Of a stretch of 64,000 nt of DNA, positions 7,498 through 64,000 are shown piece by piece (within the stretch, counting starts at the first letter, position 1; each line of letters begins with the position of its first letter). The position numbers were made by a program, and so were the translations under genes. The DNA is from Antedon mediterranea (Eukaryota; Animalia; Echinodermata), in assembly GCF_964355755.1 (NCBI RefSeq), contig NC_092673.1:17543648-17607647 (forward strand), in the 5' to 3' direction. The notes under the pieces are model-generated. The model searched no databases. It was not told the origin of the DNA and worked only from the letters and a program-made list of their open reading frames with translations.

Positions 7498-7525
7498 GAT
7501 ATGGGAACAAAAAGTGGGTTTTTTT

Positions 7526-25261: not shown

Positions 25262-26197
25262 TGTGTTAGATTGTGTACATAAGGCATGTGCATTGTTAGA
25301 TTGTACACATAAGGCATGTGTATTGTTAGATTGTACACATAAGGCATGTGCATTGTTAGATTGTACACATAAGGCAGTGTATTGTTAGATTGTGCACATA
25401 AGGCATGTGTATTGTTAGATTGTACACATAAGGCATGTGCATTGTTAGATTGTACACATAAGGCATGTGTATTGTTAGATTGTACACATAAGGCATGTGT
25501 ATTGTTAGATTGTACACATAAGGCATGTGCATTGTTAGATTGTACACATAAGGCATGTGTATTGTTAGATTGTACACATAAGGCATGTGTATTGTTAGAT
25601 TGTACACATAAGGCATGTGCATTGTTAGATTGTACACATAAGGCATGTGCAGTGTTAGATTATGCACATAAGGCATGTGTATTGTTAGATTGTACACATA
25701 AGGCATGTGTATTGTTAGATTGTACACATAAGGCATGTGCATTGTTAGATTGTACACATAAGGCATGTGCATTGTTAGATTGTACACATAAGGCATGTGT
25801 ATTGTTAGATTGTACACATAAGGCATGTGTATTGTTAGATTGTACACATAAGGCATGTGCATTGTTAGATTGTACACATAAGGCATGTGCAGTGTTAGAT
25901 TGTACACATAAGGCATGTGCAGTGTTAGATTATGCACATAAGGCATGTGTATTGTTAGATTGTACACATAAGGCATGTGTATTGTTAGATTGTACACATA
26001 AGGCATGTGCAGTGTTCGATTGTACACATAAGGCATGTGCAGTGTTAGATTGTGTACATAAGGCATGTGCAGTGTTAGATTGTACACATAAGGCATGTGC
26101 ATTGTTAGATTGTACACATAAGGCATGTGCAGTGTTAGATTGTGTACATAAGGCATGTGCATTGTTAGATTGTACACATAAGGCATGTGCATTGTTA
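25262..26197. repeat. 30-bp tandem repeat, about 31 copies
   Basis: Unit tgttagattgtacacataaggcatgtgYat. Confidence 0.97.
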
Positions 26198-27094
26198 CCG
26201 CACAAAATAAAACTGATGAGAAATTTAATTTCATTATGCAATTTTATCTTAATTAGTCAGTAAAACATTTTTTCATGGCTTACTAATGGAGATTTTGATG
26301 TAGTTTTATTTGATTAACAAATGGTAACATGCATTGATAGTTGACAAACATTTTGTGGTTTTAATAAAATGAAATAATTTATTATATAATATAGAGTAAA
26401 TTACACAGAAAAAGTAATGTGATGATGTGTGTTTGCCTAGCCTTTGTTTACTGTGCACTTTCACATTGGCTGGAAAATGCCAGGGCAATTTACAGTCATT
26501 GTTGTCTTTCAGGTTTAGACTTATTATTATTAATTATAGAAGTGATTATTAATTTCCAATAGACCATATCATAAAAACCCATCAAAAACTGCGTTTGTGA
26601 TTTTGTTCTCTGTTATATAAAATCTTTTATTTTCTATTGAATAGGCTGACATGCAAGACTGATTTAGGAAGTCAGGTGATGCACAGAACGCGGCAAAGAG
26701 GGTGTTGGCACTTTGCATAACAATAAACACCTTATAGGCTGGTAGCGTACAATCCCATTGCTGGACCAGTGAATGGAGGATTCTTTTCCAGACAAATGAT
26801 GTAATTTTATGGTTAACATTATTTATGAATTCATTAGTGTGATGTGAGTTATATATTTTTTAAATTTCATTATAGTAATTTGACTTTTAAGCTAGTAGAG
26901 CTCATTATATAAAGGTTTAAACAGTCTGGTTTAAAGCTAGTCCGTAATAATACGACACAATGGTTCATACAACAAACAGTAGCCAAAACATATTTTGGTT
27001 TATAATCCAACAGATATGTTGTGTGAGAATAAATGCTGTTTTAAATGTCTTATTAATTCTTTTTAATTGTGGTTTGCTGTCTTTAAATTAGCTT

Positions 27095-29505: not shown

Positions 29506-29878
29506 ACTGTAACAAACAATATTATTTATGTAATTATTAGAATCAGGGACATTTCGGATCAGTCATAGAGGAAACAATTAAATAGTTTTTTCCTCCATAG
29601 ACCAAGATCCCACAATTAGGATATAAATGGTTGGTAGTTTGCAATAGTTATACAATTTTAAACGAATGATTTTTTAAACTGAATAATCAACTATTTTATT
29701 ATATGGTTTACAATTTTTATAAAAATTTTGATTTTCTCTTTGTGAAAAAAATTGGTCATACTTAAAATTGCAGTGTAAGGCAATAATTGTCCTTTTTAAG
29801 TGCTTATAACATCATGTAATTGTGCGTTATTTTTTTATGCTTACTATGGAATGACATATAATGCCTGCGTGTTAATAA

Positions 29879-39062: not shown

Positions 39063-40544
39063 CAGTGTTCTCCCCAGGATTCACATCAAGCATCACGCTT
39101 CCGCCCCCCCCCCCCCGATTTTTGGTAATTGACACCCTAGATGGCCGGAAATTATCATATAAATTATTAAAATTGTCTAGAAACATAATCAAGGGTTACA
39201 TTTAAAATCACTTGAAATAAAAAAGGGCTACACATTTATATTAAAACTTATACAGCATATGTCACACAAATATAAAATACAATTGTAAATCGTAGGGAGA
39301 GAGATCTCCAGCACATATATATTTTAATTATTCAATAAGTCAAATATCTTGTCTTTACTATTTTTCCATTTCTGATCAGCAGTATAAAAGTCATACGAAT
39401 ACTCATTATTTATGAGGTTTATAATTTCATTTTTAAATAGACCCCAAATATTTGCAAATTCTTTTTTTTCTGTCGTTTCTAGTTCTTTATATATTATGGA
39501 GGATTTATATATATACAAAATGTAAAAACTGAAATTAATTCGTTTACAAGTTTGTTTGTTGTTCCCAAAATTACATTAACCCACTTTGGGAAGTCTTGCT
39601 GTACTGTAACCTCATTTGGAAGACACTGAAACTTTTTCCAGACTGGTTCAATAGTTTTACATGCAATTAATAAGTGTTCTTCATTTTCTATATGATTTTT
39701 ACACTTATTACATTTGTCTGTTGTGGATAATTTCCACCTTTTTAGTATTTTTTTACATATAAGGATTCGATGTAACAACTTAAAATTAAATTGAGCTACT
39801 TTTACCATGTGTTTCATTCTACATACTTTTCTATTCCATATTTCATTCCTGTCAATAATTTCATCTCTAAATTCTATTTCCCATTTCATTTGAGGAAAGG
39901 ACACTTCATAGCGCGCTAGCAAACAGCAGAACAATCGTAGCCTTCTTGATTGGAATGCAAATGTATGATCGATTCAGCTAGCAAATGAATTGCGCCTAGC
40001 AATTTAAGTTTTTTTTATGGTGTGTGCATACGTAACCGACGAAAGAGTAATTAAATTTTACCAATCCATAGAGAGTCAATTAATTCAGTGTGGTATTGAA
40101 AATATCATTAATAATTTATTTGTTAATGCACATAACATTTTTACAAGAAAATATAAATACAATCATTATTTTAACTTTATTTACAATATACAAGTTACTG
40201 CATTTTAAACGATTCAGGCAACAGCCAATACTAGAGATCAAAAGAGAAACATCTCTCGGTGGTGGCCGATGAAAGTGCGTCTCAGTCGCAGTAACACTTT
40301 GTTACGCAGTCTTTTGTTTTTCGTAGTGGTCATGTCACGTGTCTCGTATGCATTAGGCACTTTATGCATGCCTCAGCTCTAGAAAGTACCTGCCTGTTAT
40401 TAATCTATTTTTAGAAAGGTTGTGGTTGATATTTTGAAGCGTCACGGATAAGGTTTTAAGCGTCACAGCCGACCGTAAAGCGTCACGGCAGAGAACCCAA
40501 GCGTCACGATACGGTGACGCTTCAAGGGCCAGGGGAGAACACTG
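39063..40544. mobile_element. non-autonomous hAT-like element containing a LINE 3' fragment
   Basis: TIR cagtgttctcccc / ggggagaacactg; subterminal aagcgtcac repeats at 40437-40508; TSD degenerate. Confidence 0.75.
39324..39900 (-). pseudogene. L1/Tx1-type LINE ORF2 C-terminal zinc-finger (zf-RVT-like) fragment
   Basis: FNFKLLHRIL...RWKLSTTDKCNKCKNHIENEEHLLIACKTIEPVW, then a frameshifted IYIYKS tail. Confidence 0.8.
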
Positions 40545-42564: not shown

Positions 42565-45500
42565 ATGGAAAGGTACGTTTTTAACAATTATTTCAAACAA
42601 AAATAACCAGCTCCAATATGTGTTGATATTATTGAAATATGTAACTATTAAAAACAAATTAAAATGTTTGAATAGTTATATTGACATACATATATATAAC
42701 ATACTTTATAATCAGAATTTATAGTTCAAACAAAAAGAAAACACTTTGATTTTAAGATATTCTTTTGAGAAAAATACTTCAAACTTTCTTAAAAGATTAT
42801 AAAATCCAAAATTATTTCTTTCTTTCTTTAAAAATTATGAAATCATAAATATACAATTAAAGCGCTTATTCTCATTAAATATAATAATAATAATATTTCC
42901 ATCAATCATCATTCTCAATAAATACACGGGTATAAATGGATTATTTCTTACATTTTGACAGGAAACATTTGGTAGAAGCTTGGTCAAGGAATGATTTGAA
43001 AACAATTAAACAAATCTGTAAGACGCAACCAGGTCTTCTGAAATCTATCAATGAGGTATAAAAACAGATATATTTTTATAATATTATCAAAGAAGAAATT
43101 CTTTTCATTAAAGTTTAAAATTATAGAGGATGTAATTTTATTTAATAGTTTAAAGCTTTTTTACTTAATGAATTACAATTCTTTTGCATTATCACACTGA
43201 TGATGGAGGTATAACCTGCATATACTGATTAACCACATTAGGCTAAAAATAATAATATAGATACACACTGATGATGGAGGTATAACCTGCATGTACTGAT
43301 TAACCACATTAGGCTAAAAATAATAATATAAATACACACTGATGATGGAGGTATAACCTGCATATACTGATTAACCACATTATACACACTGATGATGGAG
43401 GTATAAACCTGCATGTACTGATTAACCACATTAGGCTAAAAATAATAATATAAATACACACTGATGATAGGGGTATAACCTGCATGCACTGATTAACCAC
43501 ATTAGGCTAAAAATAATAATATAAATACACACTGATGGGTATGGCAAGCCTCAGCTGTCTGGAGTATTCGAAATATTATATTATTAATAATGTGGTAAAC
43601 CATTCTATTTTGTTCTACTCATTTATTAATAATGATAATTATGATTATTTACCACAATATTTAGCAGCAATTGTTGTTGTTTGTATTGACAAAAAACAAA
43701 CAATTTCACATAATGTCTGTTGTCAATATTTATAAACTTTATTGTGATTCCTTTCCAGGATGGTGAAACTCCATTACATATATATCTGTGGAGTGGATAT
43801 CCACCTAACTTAGAAATAGTGACGTGTCTCATTCAGCATGGGGCACCAGTAGCATTGCAAAATAAGGTAATGTACAGGGATTTGCTGGTGTAATAGGCTA
43901 ACATTCTATAGATATGCTGTGGTAAACCATTCTATTTTGTTCTACTTATTTATTAATAATAATAATTATGATTATTTACCACTTTATTTAGTAGCAATTG
44001 TTGTTGTTTGTATTGACAAAAAACAAACAATTTCACATAATGTCTGTTGTCAGTATTTATAAACTTCATTATGATTCCTTTCCAGTATGGTGAAACTCCA
44101 TTACATTCATATCTGAGGAGTAGATATACACCTACCTTAGAAATAGTGACTTGTCTCATTCAGCATGGGGCACCAGTAGCATTGCAAAATAAGGTATTGT
44201 ACAGGGATTTGCTAGTGTAATAGGCTAACATTCTATAGATATGCTGTGGTAAACCATTCTATTTTGTTCTACTCATTTATTAATAATGATAATTATGATT
44301 ATTTACCACAACATTTAGCAGTAATTGTTGTTGTTTGTATTAACAAAAAACAAACAATTTTACATAATGTCTGTTGTCAGTATTTATAAACTTCATTATG
44401 ATTCCTTTCCAGAATGGTGACACTCTATTACATTCATATCTGTGGAGTGTACGTACACCTACCTTAGAAATAGTGACTTGTCTCATTCAGCATGGGGCAC
44501 CAGTAGCATTGCAAAATAAGGTATTGTACAGGGATTTGCTAGTGTAATAGGCTAACATTATATAGATCTGCTGAAGTAAACCATTCAGCAGTAATTGTTG
44601 TTGTTTGTATTTACCAAAAAAAAAACAATTTTACATAATGTCTGTTGTCAGTATTTATAAACTTCATTATGATTCCTTTCCAGAATGGTGACACTCTATT
44701 ACATTCATATCTGTGGAGTGTACGTACACCTACCTTAGAAATAGTGACTTGTCTCATTCAGCATGGGGCACCAGTAGCATTGCAAAATAAGGTATTGTAC
44801 AGGGATTTGCTAGTGTAATAGGCTAACATTATATAGATCTGCTGAAGTAAACCATTCAGCAGTAATTGTTGTTGTTTGTATTTACCAAAAAAAAAACAAT
44901 TTTACATAATGTCTGTTGTCAGTATTTATAAACTTCATTATGATTCCTTTCCAGAATGGTGACACTCTATTACATTCATATCTGTGGAGTGTACGTACAC
45001 CTACCTTAGAAATAGTGACTTGTCTCATTCAGCATGGGGCACCAGTAGCATTGCAAAATAAGGTATTGTACAGGGATTTGCTAGTGTAATAGGCTAACAT
45101 TATATAGATCTGCTGAAGTAAACCATTCAGCAGTAATTGTTGTTGTTTGTATTTACCAAAAAAAAAACAATTTTACATAATGTCTGTTGTCAGTATTTAT
45201 AAACTTCATTATGATTCCTTTCCAGAATGGTGACACTCTATTACATTCATATCTGTGGAGTGTACGTACACCTACCTTAGAAATAGTGACTTGTCTCATT
45301 CAGCATGGGGCACCAGTAGCATTGCAAAATAAGGTATTGTACAGGGATTTGCTAGTGTAATAGGCTAACATTATTTTCTATTTTGTTCTGGTTTACCACA
45401 TTATTTAGCAGTAATTTTTACTGTATTGTCTCATATTATGGTATATCTGCAGCACTGCAAAATAGGGTAATGTAGGCTTACAAAGAATTGTCAGGACAAT

Positions 45501-48500
45501 TTCACATTTTATTGTTATCAGTATTTATAAACTTCAACTTCAGTATCAATTAGCCTCCATATTAATCAATAGTATTACTACCTCAAAGAGTAGTATTATT
45601 TAATCAGACTTACAGATATAGAATTCTCAAGTGTTTGATTTTTTTCACATTTTTCTCTTTTTACACATAGCACATTCTAACAAGTTTGTTTTGATTTAGA
45701 TATTCATTTATAAGTCAACTATAATTGTAATGTGTTGTTGTTGTTTTAATATTTCATTTGTATCTGGATAGTATCCAAATATTATTTTCTTTGAAAGTTT
45801 ATAGTAAAACTATTTGTTGTTTTATATTATGGCTCAAACATTTTAACACATTTACCTACTGTTCCAAAGTAAACTTTTATTCAATTTATCTCTCTCTCTC
45901 TCAATGTTGAAGGCGGTAGACTATAAACGGCAGCGCTTAAGTTTTGGTTTGGATACAGGAGTTATAGGTGGCGCACTGTACAAGTTGATGTCATTTATTG
46001 GCAAATAGTAATTTCTATTCACGTCCTAATTTACAACCAATGTTAAAAAATAGTAAATCTACGTGTTATCACATGATGCTCTTTCATCCAATCTCTAGAT
46101 GGTAAATGTTTGAGCCATGACTGTATGTATGTGATGCGTATTAAAGTGTGTTATATTGTATATCAATAATTTCTCAAAAACTACTAAGTAACTACACCCA
46201 TTTTTTAATAGGATGGAAATACACCTGTCTCTGTTTTAGAAAGTAACAGGTGGATAGGGTACCAGAGAAAAATTGAAATTTTAAACTTCTTTAAAAGTAA
46301 GTGAAGTTTTAATTATTAAAATTTTGGAATCAACTAGTTTTCATTACAAACGATAAAGATTTGATTTTTTGTCCCAAATGAAGAAGACTGTCCAGATAAA
46401 GAAAATTAACATTTATGATATCATTCACAGGTTCAGATGGCAATAGATTAAATAATCCACTGGGATTGTAGTAAACATGGAAGTTGTGATATGTTGCAAG
46501 ATGTAAAAACCTTATTTTTTATGATTTGAAAATTGCAAATAAATTAGAAAAATTATTTTGCCATTACGATAAAAATACACAAAAATGCAAACTTTAAAAT
46601 TCCTTTGAATTAACAATATTGAATAAATTTGGCCACACTTTTTTTTTATGGAACGTCATTTTTCACATCAAATCAATCTCTTTATTCATCAATACATCAA
46701 AACAATTATACATAAACAAATTAAAGATGTGAAGATGAAAGGGACCTCCAAGAAACCCAAAGGGACTTGTGATAAAAGGACCACTATAAGCTAGTTACAA
46801 AAAAAACATACAAAAAATAAATTAATAAAATTAATAAAAATCCTGTATAGACAAATACACGGGATGCGCATTGTTAAGGAATATTTGAACTTTATTAATT
46901 GCATATAAATGTAAATGTAGAATATTTTTTTTTTAAATGTAATCTATTTTATATATAATGGTATTATTTAAAATATGTATTCGCAATCGAGGCAAACAAT
47001 TTACGATAGGAGGAGATAAATATTGAATTTAACAAGGCCATATAGATGTCTGCAGTCGCTTGCTCAAGTTAGTGTTTACCAACCGACCGACATAGTGAGT
47101 TGTAGAGTGGCGTTGCACGTGACTAAAAATCTAATTTTCTTGTTAATCCCATTTTTTGTTTCCACAATGAATGAATTTTCTTCACATACTTTAAGCCAGC
47201 TTAAGAATTCTATTTCTCTGTATGTAAAATTAAGCATCATACATAATGTATTTTACCTTGGCTCCTACAATTGTATTATCTTGCAACTTCTTATGCAAAT
47301 AGGCACAAAATAATAAGTAATATTTGAGCATAAACGCTTAAATAATTGTAAAAGTTGTTATAAATTAATGAGCTTTCAGTAGAGTACTTATACACAGAAT
47401 AATAGAATATTGCATTCATATTTTGTTTCTTTTTCTTCCCAACTTGTTGTTACTTTTTTCTGGGAGCCTAGGCTTAAAGTTTTATACTTTTAAGGTTTCC
47501 TTCCACACATACTATGTTTTATTAATTATTATCTTACATGTTTATATAATTATTATTTTATGTATTTTTAATATGTGTGAAGAATATTTATTCAATATCT
47601 ATTGAATATTGCATAAACGAATTAAATTTCAAATATTTATCCTTGGCTTGGTGTAGGCCTACTAAAAAAGGTTGAGAATACAGAACCAAAACTGATAGTA
47701 ATGTATGACAAAGTGAACAAACTTTTATAGTCTAAGGAACTTTCTTAGTCAATACATACAAGATTAAACCATTAGGTAAGAGTTCAAAATCTATTTCAAA
47801 GACCCTTTCCTTACAATTTTCGACGTTTTGTAAAAATAATGGAATATTACTTTAAAAACATTAAACCAGGTTATTCCTTGTCTTAGATGTACGTTTTATG
47901 GTAATTTATGATAAAATGAGAGAAAAAATGCACTACCTAAGTAGCTCGCAGTTTATTTATTATTATAAAGTTTATTAAAATCATTAATAAACTTATATTA
48001 TATATTTGATACTTTCTGATCGTACCAGACGTAACCATAGCCAGTGGAACAAAGCAATGATTTTTAACCAATAACGAATAATAAAAATAAAGCAATCAAT
48101 GTTTAAGGATAGTCTGCCTAATTCTGATCCGACAGCCACGCTGGGTGTGCTGTTTCCAATGCCTAAAATGAATCTTGAAAAACGTGTCTGTAAATGATCA
48201 ATTGGTGATAAATTCGAAAAGCCCCATGTCTCACTCCCGTAAATTAAAATTTGTAAAACTTTGTCAAAAATGTGTTTCCATATATTCTCTGGTAGGTATT
48301 GTGTTTTGCTAATAATTGATTGTAAATAGTACGTACGTTATTTGTTTTTTGACAATTGTGTTCAATTGTGTTATTCCACTGACCATTTGAATTGAAAACC
48401 ACTTCCAAGTAAGTATACGATTTAACAACTTCCATTTTAATGTTTATGTAATACCATTTTTCATATTTTCTTAATTTTTCATCTTTTTTAAATACCATTA

Positions 48501-51500
48501 TTTTTATTTGTTTACATTACACTAAGACGTGTCACAAAATATTTCCAATATAATTATTAAATGTTGTAAGCCTTTACTGTGTCTGCGAATAGTAATAAAT
48601 CAGCAGCATTATTACTTTCGTTATTTTGATTTAGCTAGTAATTCATAAATATATTAAATAGAGATGATGGCAGGGGTGACCCTTGTTGTATTCCAATTGA
48701 ACATTCAAATAGGAGCGTTAATGAGTTTCCTATTTTTACATGTGCTAATAATTGGAAACTAAATAATAATATATATGACGTCATATAATATTATTGACGC
48801 CTATTCTTAATTTTAATAATAGAAAATTATGCTTTATACTGTCAAGTGCACGTTTTAGATGAACGAAGCAACAAAATAGTCTACCCCTTTTTTTACGTAG
48901 ATATTTTTTAATTATCCTGTTAAGAATGAAAATATTATCTAATGTGCGGAATCCCTTGCGAAAACTTGATTGTTCTTATTAAATAATGTTATTGTTTTCA
49001 GTTAGTTATTCTAGTGTTAAGGATGTTTAAAAATATTTTGCCAAGAATTGGAATTAGAGAAATGCCCCTATATTAAATACTAGGCTAGACTTACCAAATA
49101 TTTATTTTGTTTTCAAATTTAGCGCCAGCTGAACCGCTGCTTCAATAGGCTAAAATAGTCCTTGGCTGTACTGCTAATAACTAATTGTACTGTATATTCA
49201 TTACATTGGTGGGGGGCGGGGGGCGGTGTTCTTCTAAACACCAAGCCCTTCAAAGTATAACTAAGCTCTACCAAGTGTATAAAGTGTATATTTTACAAAT
49301 ATTTATATATACAAACATTTAGAGTTTTTAATCAATTATGCAAGCAAGCAATTATGACACATTGTACATTCTAGGCTGATGTTTAAATTTTTTATTTTTT
49401 TAAATTAATATTTACAAAGTGTAGCGTACACACATAATGGGGAACTAACGACTGGGGACAGTGGGCACGTTTTCTGAGCGTGCTTTAGTAGGACCAGAAA
49501 AGCGCCCTTATTGTAAGCCTTTAAAGGTGCAATTCCAGGTCTATATTGGCAAAATTGTTTGACATCAGCCTAAACCATGGTGGGGCTCGAGTTATCTTTA
49601 TTGTGTTTTGACAAACAGGTATAAAAACAAAATTGATTACTGGTCATAAAACAGAATATAAATTAAAATATTCAAAAAGTTAATTCAAAGCATATTGAAA
49701 ACTTACGATAGATGTTTTTAATCGCATTTCCTACTGCCTAATGAATCATACCAGTTATTCATTTCAGGATTACTTTATTTTCACTTTACCCATTGAAACC
49801 ATGCTAATCAACCGTATGTTGCTAATTTCAACGATTTAGATTCAGGATCGCTGTCAAAAAATGTTGCATAACGTCTATATGTTTGGATGAGTTTGAGTTC
49901 CACAATTTTTATTAGGACATAATTTAAATTAATAACAGTAGTTGTTAACTGTATACATTGTAGTTAAAAATATACATTATTATTATTATTATATTATATT
50001 CAGAATGAATGATTGCTTGTACACAGTCACCCACAAGTGTTTGTAAGGCTTTGTATCACACAGAGCCTTTATATAACCTTATACCATTGAAAAAAAAAGC
50101 TATGACTTTTAATATAGTGTTTTTTATGAAAATTAAATATGTAATATTTTGGTTTTGTGCATTTTTTTAGATTTACCAAGTACTGTTGATGAGCAATTTC
50201 AAACACAATTTCAGAAACAGGCAAGTGACGAACAGAAAACAAAACTTCTTAAGCCAGAGAGTGGTAAGTTTAAGAATAAGAGCTGCTGTATGTTTTATGA
50301 TTGTATCTATATATAATTTAACAGAATTGTGATTAAAATGGGATTTCAGTAAAGAGAGAAGTAGACGCTAATGTTATTTAAAAAAACATTTCTGAGCGGT
50401 ACTGTAAAAAGGCGAAAAGTGTCCAACTGATAACAAATAACAAATGGAGAGATTTTATTTATCATAAATAAAACAAACAGTTGATTGTTTCCATTTAAAA
50501 TACTGTAATAATGCAATGAAGCTAGTTTGCAGATTTATGTGGCATGCTTGCTTGATTTTTGCTTGATTGTTGATTTTTAGGTTATATGCATTATCATGCG
50601 ATCACGCACGTACAACCTTTCTTTAATAATATCATCATATTTTATTCACTTTTCAACTCGAATTTGCGTTATACGAGCACGTCAAAAGTGACAGGCTACG
50701 CACGTGTAAGTTAACAAAATGGTAAAAATATGCTAAATTTTAAAAATAATATAGATCGTCAGAATGCTCGGGAACACATATTTTTTATTTCATTTTCTTG
50801 AAGTGTATGTATCATATGTATGATTTATTATGAAATTAAGAGTACAAAAGTTGATCAAGTCATCATTAATTGCATTTTAAATTTAAAAAAATTTATTTCG
50901 ACAATCAAAAAATTATGACATTTTCTTAGGCCGAAATAACAAACTTTAACTTTCTTCCTTCAAAATAAAAGTTCATATATTAAAGTTAAAAGTATATAGT
51001 TTGACAGTGCATGATTTTTTAACATTTTTAAAGATGTCATCATAGTAAAAAATACACGGAGGAATCTTTCTACAACTTTTAGTCAGTTGTGTATGGCTCG
51101 GTGGTCTGTGCTCGTGTCTATGGCATTCAAGGTACCAAGATCGAGTCTCATATTGGGAAACGAAATAATATTTTTTTTATTATCCATATTGTTTGTTAGT
51201 CATTTTATTTGTTAGTGTATAGATTATACACATAATTTATAATGAAATCTAGATAAAAAGTAAGTAATGTCTTTATTATTATGTAGTGGTTTATGACATT
51301 ATACGCAGAGGGATCTTTGATCGGATTGTGATACAGAATATTGTATTCGCATTAGCAAGGTCCTATATCTATATATAAATTTACGTAAGGGCAAAATTCG
51401 CGGTTTATTTCTAGAATTTATACTCAATGGTATATAAAGTTGGTTCGTACTTTCGGTACTCATTTTAACCATCTGATGTAACCCTGTTTACTAATTAAAT

Positions 51501-54500
51501 TGAGTTAAATAATTAGTTATTGACAATTAAAACAAATTCAGGTTCAACGATTTGCCCCAAATAGGGGTGTTTCGTGGTTGTGGTATACACTGTATAATGG
51601 ATGTCAATCTTAATAAATACCCACACACAATAATACGAGGATGCTTCGCATTTTCCTATCTCCTCCTCAATAATTGTTTTTAATAGCTGAAAACTGGTTG
51701 AACAGCTCGAGTACAGCATCATAATGTTGAAGATTTTCTTTAAAAAATACTATTTTGATAGATTTAATAAACGTTTATACAAATGTTTTGATCTGGGATA
51801 AATGGAACATTCCAATCTCTGTTCCACAAGTTTCTATTCCCTTAGGCGTCGTAAAGACAAGTACAGTCATAACAGAAATTCGATCCATTTTTTTTCAATC
51901 TGTGCGGATTACCAATAAAAAAAAAAACCAAAATTCATATCTTTAACAACGCATTAACAGGAATACTATCAAGTTTCCAACTCTTAACCAACGGAGGAAC
52001 TACTTTTATTGTATTTGTCTCTATAAATGTATCAATGTGTCATTTGGGTCCTTTCTCCTTTCTTTATTTGAATGAATATTCTTAAAAACGGATTTACCAT
52101 TTTATGGGCCCTCAACAAGACAAAACAACAAACAACAACAAAGAATTATAAAAATTAAAATAAAGATATGAACAAGATGATAATGACAAAGAAGTTTGTG
52201 TTAATAAGAATGATATTACTCTAACATAATAATTAGTATCATATTTTAACACAAAGAATATAATGCTGATTATTAAGATAAACATAAAGTGTGTAGTTTT
52301 GTTGTACTGTAGTTGAATTTCTAAAGCTGATTATAGATATAGAAAGTTATTATAATGTTTCACAAATCTTTCTGAAAACAATGATTTCAACAATAAATAT
52401 AGCATAGCATAGTTAAATGTAGACAGTGAACAATTTTATTCCCTGGTGGTAGTGTTTTCTCTGCTTTGGCCCTCCTCAGCACTCCACATTTTGCTGAAAC
52501 AAATAAAAATTGAAATTTACATCATTGTGTGAACAGGTGCCATGTTAAAATATATTAAATATAAATTAGACAAATTTCATATATATCTTGTTTTTAAAAT
52601 AGACTTATATATATATTATATAAAAATCATAGATAAAATCTCATTGATTAGATGATAAGTGAGAGTACCAATGCCTATTATTGTAGATAAAGGTTATATA
52701 TAATAATATGATACCATGATGATGATCAAGATATGATAATGACACTCGGGCTATGTTCAGACATAGCCTCACCAGCCTTTGTAACCTACACCAGTATAAA
52801 AATAGATAAATTATTATTATATGGTAGCATTATGAACATTAACAATTTTTGCCAAGTTGTGTCTTTTAATATTTCTTTTTATGAAAAATATGTGTAAAAG
52901 ATTTTGTATGTTACATTTTTTAGATTTACCAAGTCTTGTTAGTAAACAGTTTGAGAAACTAATGGTTGAAGAACAGAAAACAAAGCTTAAACCAGTGATT
53001 GGTGAGTTTAAGAATCGTATAAGGAGTTGTATGGTTCAATGTAACATATTGTGATTAAAATGGTATTTCAGTAGTGGACTTGTAGTAAGAATTTCATTCA
53101 TTTATTTTATCATATATTATATAATATACAAATTCTTATAATTGCGTGCAACTTCAATAGCTTAAATTGTCCTTGGCTGTACTGCTATGATTATAAGTTT
53201 CTCACTCATGGTTCAAAATTTGGCACAAAACATTTTCAATGAGTTGAAAGATTAAGAGAATAATTTAATTGGTCAGATGTTTTGTCTTATTCTGACGTAA
53301 TTGCACTGTATACTCAGTTCAATGAGAACACTTTGCGAACAAATTTAAAAGTATTTGACAGATTGGACTCAAACCCATGACCTCCAGATTACTAGCATTG
53401 CGTATATACCTCCAGACCACCGAGCTCAGTAGTATAGAGAGGTTTGAGTCCCATCCACACACTCATTATAGTGTAAATATCTTTTTAAATGGTTACATAT
53501 TATTTTAGTTACTGTTCATGTATTTATTACAACAGATGGCATGGTAATGATACCACAACCAAAGTTGGCTGCAATAATATTAAAAACAGGAAAAACTATT
53601 TTTGTTATAAAATTAAATAGAACTAACACTGTGCAATTCAAGTTGAAATAAATGAATTGAGGAAAATAGACAATCTTACATTGCTGTATATAAATTGTTC
53701 TGCTAGTTAACTTAATGACATGTTCAAATATAAGCTGTATTACTGTATCTACTACTGTACTGTTAATATAATCTTGACAATAAAGATGATTTGGTACTAT
53801 TTTTGTTAAGGAGTTATACTCTAAAGAGAGCTAACATTGTAACTTTGTCATGGAAGAAAGTATAATTGTATTATGAAGGAGATTGCAACAATTACTATAT
53901 AAACACAATTCAAATAATATTTCATTCTGCAGATCAAATGGAGTTAATTGTGGACTCTACAGGTGGAACTCTTCACCTTAAGGATGAAGACATCAAGTTG
54001 GAGATACAACCTGGAGCAATTGAAGAAGGAAAAACAGTTAAAATATCACTAGAAAATATTTTGGAGGAAACAGACATGCCTGTATTTCATCCACTTGAAT
54101 CAATAATATCACCTATTGTTAAATGTGGACCAGAAGGCACCATCTTCCACAAGCCCTGTTTACTGTCATTTCCACACAATGCTGTAAATGAAGAGTTTTG
54201 GGAATTCACTTTACTTTTTCAAAAATGCTCTCAAGATAAATGGAAAAAACTGACAGAAAGTAATGAAAAGGACATCAATTTTACATTAAAGAATGGTCGA
54301 TGTTTTATAAATTTAATTCACTTCAGTGGTTTTGCATTTATGGGTCGAATAAGAAACGTTTTTCATGCTAAGAAAAGTATAAAATTTGGAGTCTTTGGAA
54401 AGATGATTGTAAATGAATATCAGCTTCGAGTAAAATTTTGGATGCCGGAAAAACAGCAGGTCATTTTAAATTTGTTTAAATATTCATATTCTTTATTTCA

Positions 54501-57500
54501 AATCGTACTTACAGTGAAACACTGAATTACTGTAATTTTTACAATGTTAAAACATTTTAAAACTATTAAATTAAATTTTAATAGTAAGTAACACCATATA
54601 AAACTAAACTACTGTACACATAAATAACAGAAAAAAAATAAAGTTGCTGTGATTTTCAGCTTCCTAAAAAAATTCAGTTGCACTAAACAACACAAAAGAA
54701 ATTTAATGGAAAATCAGCCTACAATTTGTCTGAAATTGATGGCGAATTAAATACAGTAATTGTATAAAATCTTCAATACTTCAAAGAACTGCAGTTTTAC
54801 CACACTGCCGTCATTCTAAAAGCTGTATTTAGATTATTATTATTTAACTTTATTTATACTATATGTATAAATTTTATTGATTGGACTAATCATTATAAAT
54901 ACACTTAAAAAATGTAAACAACATTTTTAAACTTGAAGCAGATCACAAGTGCTTGAATTCAGAGCGGAATAGAAGATTCAGAGACATATGTACTGTACTC
55001 ATAAAACAGCCTATAGTTGATCAAAAATGTTCAGTTTAAAAAAATCTTGTCTGAATTTTAGGAGGTTGATAAAGAACAAGCATACCAGGGAGAGAAACTT
55101 TTAGAAGGAGGTACAGTACGGTCTTTGTATAAAGACTTGGAAATAAGTGTTGAAATACCAAATCAAGAATGGAGAATAGTGGATAAAAGAAAAAAAGTAA
55201 GAATATTTATTTTGTTTTTCTTTGTAATAATTAATAATTGAAAATTCTATCTATCTATACAAAATTTAATATCATCACAATGATTCCAATTAAACAGGAT
55301 ATTGAAAAAATCTCTAAACCCCACCTTAACATTTCTGAAATAAATAAAAAACTTGAAGTGAGTAAAAAACAATAAGAATTTGTTGATTATTGGTACTGTA
55401 CTACCAATGGTCTGAAAAAACCCATTAAACTAGGCCTACTAGACTCAAGCCTCATTTTTTGTTTATTACTCGATAGTTTTACTTGTAAATGTTTGAATTC
55501 AATTCAATTAAATTCATTTATTTTCCAGAAAGACATAAAAAACATATATTTATTTGTAAACACTTTTATTTTCATTTATCCGACTCATCGTCAGGGCTTA
55601 ATGTATATATATTACTGTATTTTCAATTGGATTTAATTGATTATGAAATTAAAATATAAGATTTTTAAATAAATTGGTTTTCTTGTTTGATTTTCCTGAA
55701 CTAGGGTAGGCTCCATCCTACTGGAAGATAACTGGTTCCCAAAAGATAGAGTTTTGTCATTTTGCGTGTGAATTAATGATTAGCTTACTTCTAACTATAG
55801 GCCTATGTCTGAATCGATTAATACTTTGCTCGGAGCGCTTATGTCAACTGAGTTGAGTTTGAGCCCAGGTTTTTGAGAATTACGGCCCACCACTGTTGAA
55901 ATGAAATTTCTTTGATTTGAAGATAACCTGGTTTGATATTGACCTTAATCTAATGACCTTACAGTATTTGAGTATTAAAAATCTGACTACAGTGCCCATC
56001 TACAAATTCAAAATCAGTAAAAACTAACTACTGTACTTTTTAAAATTTATCACCATACTTTCTTTTTAGATTATTCCTGCTGAATACCTATCGTTCGAAA
56101 TATCATATGAGAAATTTTTTTTAAAAAGAAAGAATTCATCCACAAATCTTCTAAAGGCAAAGTTATTGCTTTCACAAGATTCAAATTTTATTCCCGAAGT
56201 GGAAGTGGTTTGTAAGTACAATTTAAGTAGCAAAAATCTACATATAAAACACATTATAATTTATAAAGTACATTGTTCTTTTTGAAAACTATTGAATCTG
56301 TGATCTTGGACATGTATCCTAATTAAACCACAAATCATATTTTTTTTCCAGGTGATATTGGAACATTGGTTTCAAGCCAAAGTATGTATTTTCAGTAGTA
56401 ACTGTTTATATTATATATTTCCTTCATGAAAAACTAATAATTCGTCCATCCAAAATAGAGCAACTTTTGTTTTAGTTAAATTTTTAGTAACATAAAAAGA
56501 GATTGTTTGCATGAGGTACAGTATATTTTTTTGTTTTTAGTCAGAATTCAAATTAACATGCTACATTCTTCACATGCAAAAATAATGTTGTTATAACCAC
56601 TTGAATGTATTGTTTGTTACAGGTAATGTTGTACCATCAAGATCAAATTCAGGTATAATTATTATATTTTTATGTTCCAATTTTTTTTTTGTACAATGAT
56701 GGTGACAGTGAATGGATTAACATCAATAATCTAAATCAACAGTATTAATTATAAAAGAAAGTGTGTATTAGTCATAACAGGGACCAGTAAGTAAGTATAT
56801 CAAAATAAAGAAATTTAAGTAAACCATTCAAAATCATTGTAATTAATTATGGGTAAAAAGACATTTATTAACACACAAGAAGAATAGGCCTACTTCTTCA
56901 TATAATTCAAAGAAACCTAATAGAATTATCAACTGTTTCATTCCAACTTTTCAAAATAAATCATTTTAATACAGTTTTTTTTATATGAGTGTGCAAATGT
57001 AATTGTTTATTTTTTAATGAAAATTGGTAATTTAGTGAATAACTAGAGGGTACTCCGAGAGTACAAACCTCCGCCTACTGTAAAATTCCCCTACATAAAA
57101 TTTTCCCGGAAAATATATATAGTTCTAAGTGTAAATAGGCTAACTGCACACTACAAAGTTGTGGATGAGAGTTTGGTGTAATGGTTATGTATCCAGCCTC
57201 TCACAGTTGAGATCGCTGGTTCAAGTCCCACTGAAGTTATTTTTTTTTAATTATTATTTTTTTATTTCTTTTTTTGTTTTGTTTTTTGTGGACCTTAATG
57301 ATCTTTGACCCTGACCCTTCAAAATTTAACCACAATTATATGATGAGTCATTGATCATTGTGGCTAAGTTTGGTGAGATTTGGATAAAAACTGTGGTCTC
57401 TAGGCAGTAAAATAGTTTTTTGTTAGTTGTGACCTTGAACTATGACCTTTTCCCCTCAAATTCAAACTCGTCCGAGCTTTTGAGGAATAGATCATTGTAG

Positions 57501-58536
57501 CCAAATTTGGTGAGATTCGGATAAAAACTGTGGCCTCCAGGCTGTTCACAGACACACACACACACAAACACACAGGGGTGAAAACCTCCATGGCGGAGGT
57601 AATAAAATAGTATTACTCAAAAGATAATGCTACTTAAATCTATTATAAGCAAATTTAAAAGGTTTAGCTCTTTAATAATTAAAACAAAATTGCACACATG
57701 AATGCATTTCAACTTGTAAAGATTTGTTTTTACAATCTATATATAAATTATGGTTAATTCTGACATAGTTGAGGACAATGGAAAAACTTCGGTATAAATC
57801 TAGAGAACCATTCGGGTACAACCAGTGGAGGGTGCGCGAGCGAACCCTCTAGTAGTGATAATTGTAATTGTAATAAAGAGGACTACTTTTTTCTTTTTGC
57901 AGTCACTGTAAATCCATGGCAAGTAAGGTTCAACAAGTTGAAACATGATCTTAGTCTAGTCTATGTTGGTGATAAATTTCTCTTACTGAGATGCTGTCTC
58001 TTTGACCACATAGATCTACATCACCTTACTGATCCAGGTAGCATCGCACATTACCTATTTAACAAACTCCATGAAAAGCGTTATATCACACCTACTAATG
58101 TCAGTCTATTGTTAGACATTGCTAAAGTATCAGATTTGAATGATGTTGAAATTCTTATAAATCAGTATGTGATTGACAACAAGGTTCCAAACACTGATGA
58201 AGAAAAACTTTCACCATACAGGTCAAAATTGTGTGAGGCATTGAAGCAATTTGACCAAAATACTTTAAATGGTGTAATTGCTTTCTATGGATTGGATTCA
58301 ATGAGAATGCAATTGCCAACCATTTGGGATTTAGTGTTTCACCTGGAGAGAACTGGAAAATTAGTAGAAGAATCAGAAAGGAAGATTTTTGCTGAGCGTC
58401 TTGGAACAATTGCAAACAATATACTATTAACGGTATGTATTTGGTAAATTAAACATTTTTTTTATAAAAAAAAAACCCACAAAAATGCCATTCACTACCA
58501 ACCTGTTTTTTCCTACAGGTACTTGCTGATGAATGA
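42565..58536 (+). CDS. spliced gene 2: ankyrin-repeat / ZU5 / UPA-like / tandem DED-like protein, about 805 aa
   Basis: Exons, all AG/GT and phase-compatible: 42565-42572, 42962-43055, 43759-43866, 44086-44193, 44413-44520, 44684-44791, 44955-45062, 45226-45333, 46212-46296, 50171-50263, 52924-53001, 53933-54459, 55062-55196, 56070-56211, 56352-56381, 56623-56652, 57903-58432, 58519-58536 (TGA). Sum 2418 nt, open throughout. Start and last exon are less certain. Confidence 0.85.
43194..43535. repeat. about 71-bp intronic tandem repeat, about 5 copies
   Basis: acactgatgatggaggtataacctgcatRtactgattaaccacattaggctaaaaataataatata... Confidence 0.9.
43759..45333 (+). CDS. six tandem 108-nt ankyrin-repeat exons of gene 2 (exon+intron units of 327, 327, 271, 271, 271 bp)
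   Basis: DGETPLHIYLWSGYPPNLEIVTCLIQHGAPVALQNK; YGETPLHSYLRSRYTPTLEIV...; 4 x NGDTLLHSYLWSVRTPTLEIV.... Matches ankyrin consensus GxTPLH...LEIVxxLxxxGA; ttccag acceptors and aag|gta donors. Confidence 0.93.
48100..48760 (-). pseudogene. degenerate non-LTR retrotransposon RT fragment (intronic)
   Basis: Minus-strand remnants GIQQGSPLPSSLFNIFMN, LLLFAD and MVFKK...YTYLEVVF, with stops and frameshifts. Confidence 0.7.
53360..53428 (-). repeat. tRNA-derived SINE-like head
   Basis: Minus strand gagctcggtggtctggagg...ctagtaatctggaggtcatgggtttgagtcc has A-box and B-box-like motifs but no good cloverleaf; similar heads at ~51092 and ~57170. Confidence 0.45.
53933..54459 (+). CDS. ZU5-domain exon of gene 2, with HFS motif and start of UPA-like region
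   Basis: VDSTGGTLHL..IKLEIQPGAI...IISPIVKCGPEGTIFHKPCLLSFPHNA..W is the ZU5 signature; FINLIHFSGF with HFS at 54319-54327. Confidence 0.93.
57042..57603 (-). mobile_element. HINE/DINE-1-like element in an intron of gene 2
   Basis: aactagagggtactccgagagtacaaacctccgcc ... (ca)n ... aacctccatggcggaggtaat: stem-loop, subTIR acctccgcc/ggcggaggt, microsatellite and tgacctt repeats; contains a tRNA-like segment at 57165-57240. Confidence 0.75.
57903..58432 (+). CDS. tandem death-effector-domain-like exon of gene 2
   Basis: FNKLKHDLS...LRCCLFDHI...YLFNKLHEKRYITPTNVSLLLDIAKV...LINQY followed by SPYRSKLCEALKQF...IWDLVFHLERTGKL. Both fit the DED pattern (LFxxLExxxxI..N..LL; SPYR between tandem DEDs). 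Confidence 0.75.
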
Positions 58537-58560: not shown

Positions 58561-59770
58561 GTACCATGTGAGACAATGAAGAAAGTAATTTACCATTACC
58601 ATGTAAACCATTGCCATGTGAGACAATCTAGCAACTACCATTGCCGTGTGAAAAAATCAAGCACGTACCATTGCCATGTGAGACAATCTAGCAACTACCA
58701 TTACTGTGTGAAAAAATCAAGCAAGTACCATTGCCATGTGAGACAATCTAGCAACTACCAGTACTGTGTGAGAAAATCAAGCAAGTACCATTGCCATGTG
58801 AGACAATCTAGCAACTACCATTATCATGTGAGAAAATCAAGCAAGTACCATTGCCATGTGAGACAATCTAGCAACTACCATTATCATGTGAGAAAATCAA
58901 GCAAGTACCATTGCCATGTGAGACAATCTAGCAACTACCATTATCGTGTGAAAAAATCAAGCAAATACCATTGCCATGCGAGACAATCTAGCAACTACCA
59001 TTACTGTGTGAAAAAATCAAGCAAGTACCATTGCCATGTGAGACAATCTAGCAACTACCATTATCATGTGAGAAAATCAAGCAAGTACCATTGCCATGTG
59101 AGACAATCTAGCAACTACCATTATCGTGTGAGAAAATCAAGCAAGTACCATTGCCATGTGAGACAATCTAGCAACTACCATTACCGTGTGAAAAAATTAA
59201 GCAAGTACGGTACCATTGCCATGTGAGACAATCTAGCAACTACCATTATCGTGTGAAAAAATCAAGCAAATACCATTGCCATGCGAGACAATCTAGCAAC
59301 TACCAGTACTGTGTGAGAAAATTAAGCAAATACCATTGCCATGTGAGACAATCTAGCAACTACCATTACTGTGTGAGAAAATTAAGCAAGTACCATTGCC
59401 ATGTGAGACAATCTAGCAACTACCAGTACTGTGTGAGAAAATTAAGCAAGTACCATTGCCATGTGAGACAATCTAGCAACTACCAGTACTGTGTGAGAAA
59501 ATCAAGCAAGTACCATTGCCATGTGAGACAATCTAGCAACTACCATTATCGTGTGAGAAAATCAAGCAAGTACCATTGCCATGTGAGACAATCTAGCAAC
59601 TACCAGTACTGTGTGAGGCAATCTAGCAACTACCATTATCATGTGAGGAAATCTACCTAAAAGTACCATTACCATGTGAAACAATCAAGCTAGTACCATC
59701 GAGTGACAATCAAGCAACTACAATTATTGTGTGTGACAAGCAAGTACCATTACTATGTGACAAGCAAATG
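58561..59770. repeat. 60-bp (2 x 30-bp) tandem repeat, about 18 copies with degenerate edges
   Basis: gtaccattgccatgtgagacaatctagcaa-ctaccattaYYRtgtgaRaaaatcaagcaa. Confidence 0.95.
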
Positions 59771-60586
59771 CCACTGACTGATAAAATCAAGTGAGTACCA
59801 TAAATACTGTGTGAGGTTTAAAAAATGCCACCAATCTTCTATCAGTACTGTAAATCACAACGCAAACAAATTGACCAATTAAAAACAAATTTATTATTAA
59901 ATTATTATGATCAATTCGCTTGCATTGCGGTTTACGCCCTTGCGATGCGTCGTATTGAGAAATAAGAATGTTTCCAGTCACTTTGAACAAACATTTCGTT
60001 AGATCAAGTATAAAAATAAATGGTCTGAACAACTTGCATTCAGTCTTATGTTTTTAGACTTTTACTAGTTACCAAGGTTAGGTTATAATAAGATTTTTCA
60101 ACAAAATGTTCATATTAGTGTATAGTGAATATAATAATCAAATTTCAAAACCGTTCAGTAGATTAAGTAAAGATTAAGCAATAATTTCTTCATGAAGAAC
60201 TCCTTGTCACCATTTACAGCAAAGAAACTGTAAAAAGACATTCCTAAGTAAAGTGCCATGTTTAAATAAATGCCTATAAAGTACAGAAATAGGATCATAA
60301 CTAATTATTGTGTTAATTTTAGGCAGTAGTAGTGAAGATGAAAGTGAGGGCACACCATTGAGTCAAAGTTACTAGAGTACATTTAATGTCTAATCTTAAG
60401 TTTAAGAATAAAACACATTAGGTATTAATTGTTTTTTCTTGTTTCTAGAGCTGAATATAGATAAACCACTAAAAAATTATATTCATAACCATATTCTTAA
60501 AATTTCAAGATAATTTATGATTCAAATGATTGCTATATTATACTGAATTCATTACATGATATGAAAACCTGTTTTTCTTCATATAG

Positions 60587-60770
60587 ATTTCTCAGAGGAC
60601 GGTTTTAAACAGTTGATTGCAGACTTTGCAAAATGGTTTGATGAACGTGAACTCCTTAACAGGCTACAAGTTCTATTTATAGAAATAAGAGACATTGAAG
60701 AAGTGAAAATTTTATTTTGGATCTGGAATCGCGAGGGTTGCTGAGTGAAGACCAAATTGAATCCATTGAG
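60587..60770 (+). pseudogene. relic DED-like exon downstream of the gene 2 stop codon
   Basis: ttcttcatatag acceptor, then DFSEDGFKQLIADFAKWFDERELLNRLQVLFIEIRDIEEVKILF and, after a frameshift, LESRGLLSED; runs into a tandem repeat. Confidence 0.55.
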
Positions 60771-60779
60771 AAGTCATAT

Positions 60780-62234: not shown

Positions 62235-64000
62235 AAGTAACTTACTTACTTACTTGTTTACTTGTTTCCGGAGCTCAGCAATGCTGGGTCCGGAGTCGAG
62301 GCTAGGCTATGCCTATAAGCCCCTCTTGATAATTACATCAACTCTTGAATATGGCGCAAATTTAAGAGGGTGGTTGGACCATGCCCGTTCAAGACCGGAC
62401 TTAAATTGATTGGTTGATCTTGAAGCTACTACATCCTCCGATAACGAATTCCATAATATAATAGCTTTTCGACCAAATGAGTCCCTCATCCAATTTGTGC
62501 GTGAGAACTTAAATTTTAATTTAAAAGAATGACCACGTGTTCTAACATCTTCATCACGCTCAAAAAAAGAATCAGCAGAAATACTATCCACTCCATGTAA
62601 AATTTTAAAAATCTGTATCAAATGAGCTCTTTGCCTTCTGTATGCGAGAGTAGGTAGGTTGAGAATTTTCAGCCTTTCTGAATAAGGTAAATGACGAATG
62701 GAAAAAATAAGCTTGGTGGCGCGTTCTTGGACTTTTTCCAATAGGTCTTCCTCCTTACAATGTAGCGAGTTAAAAACAACGTTGCAGTATTCCAAGGTCG
62801 GACGAATAATAGCTTTATATAAACGAAGAAACCCATCCATATTTAAAAACTTGAAAGCTCGATATACCATGCCCAACTTCCGATTTGCTCTCATTGCTAC
62901 ATCTGCCACATGTACATTAAAAACAAGTTTAGAGTCAATAGTAACACCGAGGTCTTTTTCATGATCAACTTCATTCAATAAGAAACCACGCATGGCATAC
63001 AGATGTTTGTTGTTTTTCTTCCCAAAGTGCATTACTTTGCACTTACCCTCGTTAAAAGGTAATTGCCATTTGTCAGACCAGTCACATGCTTTCTCTAAAT
63101 CTTCTTGTAGAACTTGAGCATCATTCACAGTGTTAACTACTCTATACAATTTAGTATCATCTGCAAACATGCGTACAGAGGAAGAAATAACAGAAGGTAA
63201 ATCATTTATAAACATACAGTAATGAAAAGAACAGGTCCAACGACGCTTCCTTGCGGGATACCACTACGAACATCAGCCCAATCTGAAACACATCCATTGA
63301 CACTAACCCGTTGTTGTCTATCGTTAAGAAATTCTTGAAACCAGTTTAGAAGTTTACCTCTAATACCCAATGCACTCATTTTCAGAAGGAGTCTATGATG
63401 AGGCACACTATCGAAAGCCTTCTTGTAGTCAAGGTAGATACAATCAAAACAATCCTGATTATCAAAATAAGAAAACCAGTTTTCAAGAACATCAAGTAAT
63501 TGTAAAGCACAGGAACGACCTTGCCGGAAACCAAATTGCTCATAACAAATAAGTGAGTGATGTTCAAGAAAGTCCAATAATTCCTTCCTGATAATTCTCT
63601 CCATAATTTTACCAACTACCGAAGTTAAACTCACAGGTCTATAGTTGCTTGGGTCAGACTTCACTCCTTTTTTAAAAATCGGTACCACTGTAGCCCGTTT
63701 CCAACTATTAGGGACGGCTCCTTCTAGAAACAATTTCGTAAAAATAATATGGAGGGGGTAGCAAATGATATCCTTTACTGTAGTTCGACTAAGATGCGTG
63801 GGTGAATACCATCAGGTCCAGCTGTTTTAGTAATATTCAACGTTGATAAAATATTTAAGATTTCGTCACAAGGAAAGTCAACTTGAGATAAAAAATCCTC
63901 TGAAGTGTCATCAATAGCCGGTACATTCGAAAAATTTTCATCGACAAATACACTACTAAAAAACGTGTTTAGCAACTCAGCCTTGTCCTTGTCATCAGAC
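62235..64000 (-). mobile_element. CR1-clade LINE, 3' part of ORF2 (reverse transcriptase), frameshifted; continues beyond the window
   Basis: ORFs 63775-63975, 63206-63733 and 62313-63215: GPDGIHPR, NYRPVSLTS, QFGFRQGRSC, YLDYKKAFDSVPH, SGIPQGSVVGP, MFADDTKLY, EKDLGV, RTRGH. Short 3' UTR and (gtaa)n-like tail at 62235-62268. Confidence 0.96.

What the first reader, a model, noticed from the sequence alone, without database searches (positions are those of the whole stretch)
54319..54327. Intact HFS autoproteolysis motif at the end of the ZU5 region
Seen: cac ttc agt = H-F-S in FINLIHFSGFAF. Established: PIDD1 and UNC5CL self-cleave at HF|S after ZU5 by a Nup98-like mechanism. Inference: the protein would be processed into an ANK-ZU5 sensor half and a UPA-DED-DED effector half, analogous to PIDD-CC or to the FIIND (ZU5-UPA) release of UPA-CARD in NLRP1/CARD8. 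That suggests a tripwire-type activation mechanism.
Basis: partly seen in the sequence, partly recalled or inferred. Interest (0 to 1): 0.7.

Follow-up and report, generated by a model that had tools for sequence, protein, structure and literature searches.

The report
Self-cutting site in feather-star death-domain protein
This feather-star gene carries the three-residue His-Phe-Ser motif at the position where related human immune and cell-death proteins cut themselves in two, so it likely self-cleaves by a known mechanism in a new domain layout, though whether it acts as a pathogen tripwire is untested.

Summary
The motif is real: 54319-54327 reads CAC TTC AGT = HFS, in frame in a ZU5 exon of an Antedon mediterranea gene. 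An 18-exon model (805 aa, ANK-linker-ZU5-UPA-DED-DED) is open throughout. Three lines of evidence put HFS at the cleavage position. Its Phe aligns with UNC5B Leu677, the published equivalent of CARD8's cut-site Phe296. In the AlphaFold model it is the last residue aligned to latrophilin-1 Leu837, the residue before that protein's cut. Among homologues, the residue after HF is Ser/Thr/Cys in 96 of 99. In 13 crinoid domains that position changes 7 times but stays S/T/C, the only one of 68 variable columns to do so. Self-cleavage is likely (about 0.75), not shown. Against it: the Ile before the His occurs in 0 of 96 homologues, and some motif-bearing relatives stay uncut. The strand after the cut is predicted to stay inside the ZU5 fold, so cleavage would prime rather than release. 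The tripwire step is extrapolation. The ANK join rests on phase and a paralogue; RefSeq omits it. The gene looks like a ROCO relative lacking Roc-COR. This scan noted similar modules in two sea-urchin findings. Known mechanism, new layout.

The parts
54319..54327 (+). H-F-S motif; predicted cut between Phe (54322-54324) and Ser (54325-54327)
54316..54318 (+). Ile (ATT) just before the His; Ile seen at this position in 0 of 96 HF[S/T/C] homologues
53933..54459 (+). Exon encoding ZU5, HFS and the first UPA strands
   Evidence: Pfam ZU5 E 5e-20; model strands 191-198 and 201-208 flank the site
42565..43055 (+). Start-codon exon (42565-42572) and N-cap exon (42962-43055) of the ANK region
   Evidence: in phase; second exon 88% identical to the N-terminus of paralogue P0153
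43759..45333 (+). Six 108-nt ankyrin-repeat exons (43759, 44086, 44413, 44684, 44955, 45226); the last four are identical
   Evidence: Pfam Ank on three exons tested, E 1.3e-6, 4.2e-5, 0.0034
46212..46296 (+). Last ANK/C-cap exon, phase-1 donor; read-through would instead end at a stop two codons later
   Evidence: homologous exon joined to the linker in P0155
50171..53001 (+). Two related linker exons (50171-50263, 52924-53001) making most of a 58-aa low-confidence linker
   Evidence: GT..AG joints 50263-52924 and 53001-53933 bridged by a contig of run X1, not X3
55062..56211 (+). UPA exons (55062-55196, 56070-56211)
   Evidence: model 215-343 matches UPA chains 7crv_D (Z 10.8) and 6x6a_G (Z 9.6)
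56352..56652 (+). Two 30-nt linker micro-exons (56352-56381, 56623-56652)
   Evidence: present in RefSeq P0002
57903..58536 (+). Tandem DED exon (57903-58432) and final exon with stop (58519-58536)

Best explanation
The HFS motif sits at the self-cleavage position of a ZU5-UPA module in a feather-star protein whose likely layout is ANK-linker-ZU5-UPA-DED-DED, and the protein likely cuts itself between Phe and Ser soon after folding while the two halves are predicted to stay bound. Shown: motif, reading frame, register and conservation. From established PIDD1/Nup98/GAIN chemistry: the buried Phe strains the turn, His helps the Ser hydroxyl attack the Phe carbonyl (N-to-O acyl shift), and water hydrolyses the ester. 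Predicted products are about 53 kDa (466 aa) and 39 kDa (339 aa, starting at the Ser). Inferred: cleavage is constitutive and primes the protein. A second event, such as ligand or location-driven clustering through the ANK repeats, or loss of ZU5, would free or concentrate UPA-DED-DED, which would recruit DED-bearing FADD- or caspase-8-like partners.
For: Register: the Phe aligns with UNC5B L677 (counted from C670/E666), which PMC3210808 names as the equivalent of CARD8 F296. The structural His they describe (UNC5B H624, CARD8 H252) is kept. VIA ranges end at model 199 against latrophilin-1 residue 837 (Z 7.5, rmsd 3.9, 136 aligned) and against the ZO-1 ZU5 chain, which ends in HF (Z 9.6); PMC3321182 gives L837/T838 as the cut. 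The site lies in the turn between strands 191-198 and 201-208 at pLDDT about 96. Fold matches: UNC5B Z 24.6, CARD8 7jn7_B Z 16.6, rat NLRP1 7crw_A Z 15.8. Conservation: HF[S/T/C] in 96 of 137 domains covering the site; S/T/C after HF in 96 of 99, against a 16% background. In 13 crinoid domains there are 7 parsimony changes at this position, all within S/T/C, the only such column of 68 with 4 or more changes. All 20 strongly conserved positions of the HF[S/T/C] set but one are kept. The gene model is open with 17 of 17 GT-AG introns.
Against: No cleavage was observed; all evidence is comparative. Ile before the His is seen in 0 of 96 HF[S/T/C] homologues, where N/D/S dominate. ADGRB2 has HLS and is not cleaved (PMC13062082, abstract). 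S/T/C also fills this column in 25 of 38 non-HF rows, so part of the bias may be structural. Domains are related, so the binomial figures overstate independence. A VIA range gives only first and last aligned residues, and Z 7.5 is middling. DED assignment is below Pfam's cut-off (E 0.066; caspase-8 E 0.6). RefSeq does not include the ANK exons. No partner or trigger was identified.
Confidence: 0.5

Rival explanations
1. NLRP1/CARD8-type tripwire: after self-cleavage, a pathogen protease or stress cuts or destabilises the ANK-linker part, the proteasome destroys ANK-ZU5, and the freed UPA-DED-DED nucleates a caspase-activating filament.
For: Same fold as the NLRP1/CARD8 FIIND. A 58-aa low-confidence linker precedes ZU5, and CARD8 needs a disordered N-terminal region (PMC7594595, abstract). 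Homologues carry many different N-terminal parts: Roc-COR, Ig-like, RING/B-box, LRR-TIR, NACHT, Rel. UPA promotes filaments in NLRP1/CARD8 (PMC7794386, abstract).
Against: The site is of the PIDD/UNC5CL HFS type, not SFS. PIDD1 is activated by local concentration, with constitutive cleavage (PMC7883297, passages). The linker is much shorter than CARD8's roughly 160 aa, and its low pLDDT may reflect a shallow alignment. No bait sequence, degradation signal or selection test was obtained.
Confidence: 0.2
2. The motif is inherited but this copy cleaves slowly or not at all, and works as an uncut, autoinhibited scaffold like UNC5B or ankyrin.
For: Unusual Ile before the His (0 of 96). Motif-bearing uncut precedent ADGRB2 (PMC13062082, abstract). 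The closest solved fold is the non-cleaving UNC5B.
Against: H, F, S and the structural His are all intact, whereas UNC5B has QLG at this place. The family keeps a nucleophile through 7 changes.
Confidence: 0.15
3. Cleavage occurs, but the UPA-DED-DED piece is a FLIP-like decoy or NF-kB adaptor that caps DED filaments instead of starting them.
For: The tail is a tandem DED without a caspase domain. Atlas neighbours include a v-FLIP-like cluster (score 0.88) and caspase-8 (TM 0.76). FLIP behaviour is recalled knowledge.
Against: Scores under 0.9 are leads only. UPA favours assembly in NLRP1/CARD8. Nothing functional was tested.
Confidence: 0.1
4. The locus is a young or decaying duplicate in a birth-and-death cluster, or the ANK exons are a separate gene, so there is no ANK sensor half.
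For: Four identical ANK exon-intron units. A broken DED exon lies downstream. RefSeq splits ANK from ZU5 here, and annotates ANK-only paralogues P0153 and P0154.
Against: All 18 exons are open and in phase. Paralogue P0155 joins the homologous last ANK exon to the homologous linker exon. Linker-linker-ZU5 splice joints occur in run X1, from this gene or a close paralogue.
Confidence: 0.1

Closest known systems
PIDD1 (LRR-ZU5-ZU5-UPA-DD)
   Same: Repeat domain, ZU5 ending in HF|S, UPA, death-fold tail; cut predicted at the same position (PMC3210808, PMC9162469).
   Different: ANK instead of LRR, one ZU5 instead of two, tandem DED instead of DD; no Pfam Peptidase_S68 match was listed; belongs to a crinoid tandem expansion.
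UNC5CL/ZUD (TM-ZU5-UPA-DD)
   Same: Single self-cleaving ZU5-UPA before a death fold (stated in passages of PMC10084454 and PMC7883297; the primary paper was not held).
   Different: No membrane anchor in this gene model; ANK N-terminus; DED-DED tail.
NLRP1 and CARD8 FIIND (ZU5-UPA-CARD)
   Same: Same fold (Z 15.8 and 16.6); same cut register via UNC5B L677; structural His kept.
   Different: HFS rather than SFS; 6-8% identity; DED-DED rather than CARD; no NACHT/LRR; degradation-triggered release untested.
UNC5B and ankyrins (ZU5-UPA-DD)
   Same: Best sequence and fold match (E 1.2e-10; Z 24.6); ankyrins also place ANK before ZU5.
   Different: UNC5B has QLG at the site and is not known to self-cleave; ankyrins have many more repeats (recalled), two ZU5 and a DD.
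Antedon ROCO-like paralogues (P0155 ANK-linker-Roc; P0005 Roc-COR-DED-ZU5-UPA-DED-DED)
   Same: Homologous ANK exons and first linker exon (P0155); ZU5 exon 61% and DED exon 43% identical (P0005).
   Different: No Roc or COR sequence was found in the window (tblastn).

Membership tests
Self-cleaving ZU5-UPA module (PIDD1/UNC5CL type) | ZU5 domain followed by UPA | tested here: met
   Pfam ZU5; fold matches over 67-339 to UNC5B and UPA chains of NLRP1; Pfam UPA only in paralogue P0003, below cut-off
Self-cleaving ZU5-UPA module (PIDD1/UNC5CL type) | H-F-[S/T/C] at the hairpin ending ZU5, in register with known cut sites | tested here: met
   with PMC3210808 and PMC3321182; transitive, no direct PIDD1/UNC5CL alignment
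Self-cleaving ZU5-UPA module (PIDD1/UNC5CL type) | Nucleophile conserved among relatives | tested here: met
   96 of 99 after HF; 13 of 13 crinoid domains
Self-cleaving ZU5-UPA module (PIDD1/UNC5CL type) | Actual Ser-dependent cleavage | not testable with these tools
   needs expression and blotting
PIDD1 orthologues | LRRs, two ZU5 domains, C-terminal death domain | tested here: not met
   ANK exons, one ZU5, DED-like tail
NLRP1/CARD8 FIIND inflammasome sensors | SF|S motif and C-terminal CARD | tested here: not met
   HFS; tail resembles tandem DED; no Pfam FIIND or CARD match listed
NLRP1/CARD8 FIIND inflammasome sensors | Activation by N-terminal degradation; DPP8/9 control | not testable with these tools
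   cell assays needed
Tandem-DED proteins (caspase-8/FLIP-like prodomain) | Two death effector domains | tested here: inconclusive
   Pfam E 0.066, caspase-8 E 0.6, Atlas TM 0.76 to a caspase-8 cluster and DED neighbours at 0.88-0.90; concordant but each below its bar
ROCO proteins | Roc-COR tandem | tested here: not met
   no tblastn hit of the Roc (P0155) or COR (P0005) regions in the window
Canonical ankyrins | ANK array, ZU5-ZU5-UPA-DD | tested here: not met
   one ZU5, DED-like tail, six full ANK exons

The most novel reading that the evidence does not exclude
Crinoids and other invertebrate deuterostomes have a large, shuffled family of self-cleaving ZU5-UPA-death-fold sensors that work as NLRP1-like tripwires. 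In Antedon a tandem cluster built from ROCO parts swaps ANK, Roc-COR, DED and membrane modules around the cassette, toggles the nucleophile among Ser, Cys and Thr, and releases UPA-DED-DED to fire caspase-8 directly: a DED-based counterpart of the CARD8 inflammasome.
Probability: 0.2. Interest if true: 0.75.

Novelty: new variant of a known kind. Interest (0 to 1): 0.42.

Why it matters
ZU5 self-cleavage is characterised in a few vertebrate proteins. A lineage-expanded echinoderm family that keeps the chemistry while exchanging its N-terminal modules and using DEDs as output would extend this logic to invertebrate immunity and to caspase-8 pathways. It also offers natural Ser, Cys and Thr versions of one site for mechanistic work. 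If only constitutive cleavage holds, it is an expected property of a known module in a new arrangement.

Tried and rejected
No whole genome was held, so cluster size, codon-level selection and local caspase-8/FADD partners were not examined. No RNA holder was listed for the ZU5 exon. PIDD1 and UNC5CL ZU5 sequences were not obtained: the PDB profile search returned only PIDD's death domain. Liao 2014 and Heinz 2012 were not held. The single-sequence fold of the DED exon was poor (mean pLDDT 47.5) and was not searched. A UPA homodimer prediction was not obtained. Pfam listed no Peptidase_S68 or FIIND match; its filters drop weak hits. Literature searches for this architecture found no paper describing it (listings only, and most subscription papers are not searched). 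Rejected: chance motif (position and conservation argue against it); RefSeq's first exon near 50005 as the true start (weak GTTTGT donor, and the paralogue junction favours the ANK exon, though this is not proven). Exon coordinate slips were corrected. No supplementary files were consulted; the alignments in those of PMC3482391 may already list invertebrate ZU5 expansions with this motif.

Full report
Observation. Bases 54319-54327 read CAC TTC AGT, His-Phe-Ser, inside an open exon at 53933-54459 whose first part matches Pfam ZU5 (E 5e-20). HFS occurs 17 times in the window's 127,996 six-frame codons, so the motif alone means little; its position and conservation were what needed testing. The exon is 100% identical to RefSeq XP_071948765.1 of the crinoid Antedon mediterranea (P0002).

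Gene. An 18-exon model from 42565 to 58536 has 17 of 17 GT-AG introns and one terminal stop, gives 805 aa, and has HFS at 465-467. Its last 526 residues equal RefSeq's. RefSeq starts at a short exon near 50005 and omits the ankyrin exons. Three ANK exons tested match Pfam Ank. The ANK join is supported by phase and by paralogue P0155, which joins the homologous last ANK exon to the homologous linker exon and then continues into a Roc domain. In run X1 (RNA is a guess) a contig bridges each of the joints 50263-52924 and 53001-53933 with GT..AG ends; run X3 does not. The X1 pieces listed on the ZU5 exon differ by roughly 8-15%, so these may come from a close paralogue. The ANK junction itself was not seen in RNA.

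Domains. AlphaFold on a 79-row alignment models P0002 residues about 70-340 at block pLDDT 81-98 as two beta domains. Fold search gives UNC5B (E 9.5e-22), ankyrin-B, rat NLRP1 (E 4.7e-9) and CARD8, with VIA Z 24.6, 20.7, 15.8 and 16.6. The tail is probably DED-DED. Pfam gives E 0.066, the only two PDB sequence hits are caspase-8 at E 0.6, and the Atlas model matches a caspase-8 cluster at TM 0.76 over 364-538. Each is weak, but they agree.

Register. In the pairwise alignment with UNC5B, HFS faces QLG. Counting by hand from Cys670 and Glu666, the Leu is 677, which D'Osualdo et al. name as the counterpart of CARD8's cut-site Phe296; they describe PIDD's HF|S as the analogous site (PMC3210808, parts 1-3 of 5 read). 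The His they call structurally necessary (UNC5B 624, CARD8 252) is kept as P0002 His150. In the model the motif lies in the turn between strands 191-198 and 201-208. Structural alignments end at model residue 199 against latrophilin-1 GAIN residue 837 (Z 7.5) and against ZO-1 ZU5, whose chain ends in HF. Leu837-Thr838 is the latrophilin cut (PMC3321182, passages). Ranges show end points only.

Conservation. From 152 proteins (the best 150 of 374 hits plus those), 161 homologous domains were aligned and 24 dropped for gaps at the site. Of the remaining 137, 96 read HF[S/T/C], and after HF the residue is T 62, S 23, C 11, other 3 of 99. The background for S/T/C is 16%; non-HF rows also have S/T/C in 25 of 38. 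In 13 crinoid domains Phe is invariant, His is present in 10, and the next position changes 7 times by parsimony while staying S, T or C. It is the only such column among 68 with four or more changes; the tree is poorly resolved. The window's AGT codon is one base from Cys and Thr, but 6 of its 8 non-synonymous neighbours are non-nucleophiles. This pattern is what selection on the hydroxyl or thiol, rather than on a particular residue, would give.

Against cleavage. The residue before His is Ile, found in 0 of 96 HF[S/T/C] homologues. ADGRB2 carries HLS and stays uncut (PMC13062082, abstract). Nothing here measures cleavage. I put it at about 0.75.

Mechanism. By PIDD1 and Nup98 chemistry (PMC9162469, passages), Ser attacks the Phe carbonyl and the ester hydrolyses, giving about 53 and 39 kDa. 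Strand 201-208 aligns within the ZU5 fold of ankyrin (70-210). Rat NLRP1's equivalent strand holds the halves together (PMC8081665, passages), and CARD8 fragments co-purify. So the halves are predicted to stay bound. PIDD1 cleavage is constitutive, necessary and not sufficient (PMC7883297, passages; bioRxiv 2025.06.23.660994, passages). The best reading is therefore priming by cleavage plus a second, unknown trigger. The NLRP1/CARD8 tripwire (PMC7594595 and PMC7794386, abstracts) is one candidate. Clustering as in PIDD1, a FLIP-like decoy role and an uncut scaffold are the others.

Context. Seven Antedon proteins came up, five on one 36-Mb contig, and more. They include Roc-COR-DED-ZU5-UPA-DED-DED (P0005), DED-first and membrane-tailed forms. 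No Roc or COR sequence lies in the window, so this gene likely arose by losing or bypassing Roc-COR; the direction was not tested. More distant homologues, those named being from amphioxus, hemichordates and other echinoderms, combine ZU5-UPA-death folds with Ig-like, RING/B-box, LRR-TIR, NACHT or Rel parts (50 proteins scanned).

Novelty. The self-cleaving module is known, and ZU5 expansions in sponges and ZU5/FIIND fusions predicted to self-cleave were noted before (PMC3482391 and PMC8195603, passages; PMC10084454, passages). Five searches found no paper on an ANK-ZU5-UPA-DED-DED protein or this crinoid cluster. Two earlier notes of this scan report similar HFS and HFC modules in sea urchins; I did not check them. 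Verdict: observation confirmed, site assignment well supported, tripwire unproven; a new variant of a known kind, interest 0.42.

Noticed in passing
window 44312-45374: A 271-bp exon-intron unit repeated 3.9 times at 99% identity, carrying four identical ANK exons; two 327-bp units precede it. Very recent repeat expansion of the putative sensor part, or an assembly expansion.
   Followed up: partly
window 60586-60779: Degraded DED exon, 81-83% identical in two pieces to paralogue P0001, with an internal deletion and a frame break; a small related exon appears to lie near 60324-60370.
   Followed up: partly
window 4785-5036: Final exon of a probable upstream paralogue with a hydrophobic, membrane-like tail, 41% identical to the end of P0011; small upstream exons near 1320 and 2477 look related.
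   Followed up: partly
P0153 and P0003 (XP_071948736.1, XP_071948739.1): An ANK-only model and a linker-ZU5-UPA-DED-DED model with near-adjacent accessions on the same contig; possibly a second split copy of the same architecture, with HFC. Inferred from accession order only.
   Followed up: no
P0155, P0005: Antedon ROCO-like proteins with ANK-Roc and Roc-COR-DED-ZU5(HFC)-UPA-DED-DED; a ROCO GTPase fused to a likely self-cleaving death module.
   Followed up: partly
window 18963-20579 (-), 62313-63811 (-), 39494-39973 (-), 47993-48337 (-): ORFs resembling retrotransposon gag/pol pieces and LINE-type reverse transcriptase remnants, judged by eye from the translations.
   Followed up: no
window 5512-10121, 25264-26197, 27088-29506, 58607-59760: Long minisatellite arrays (periods 62, 101, 30, 36, 60); several give spurious long ORFs.
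   Followed up: no
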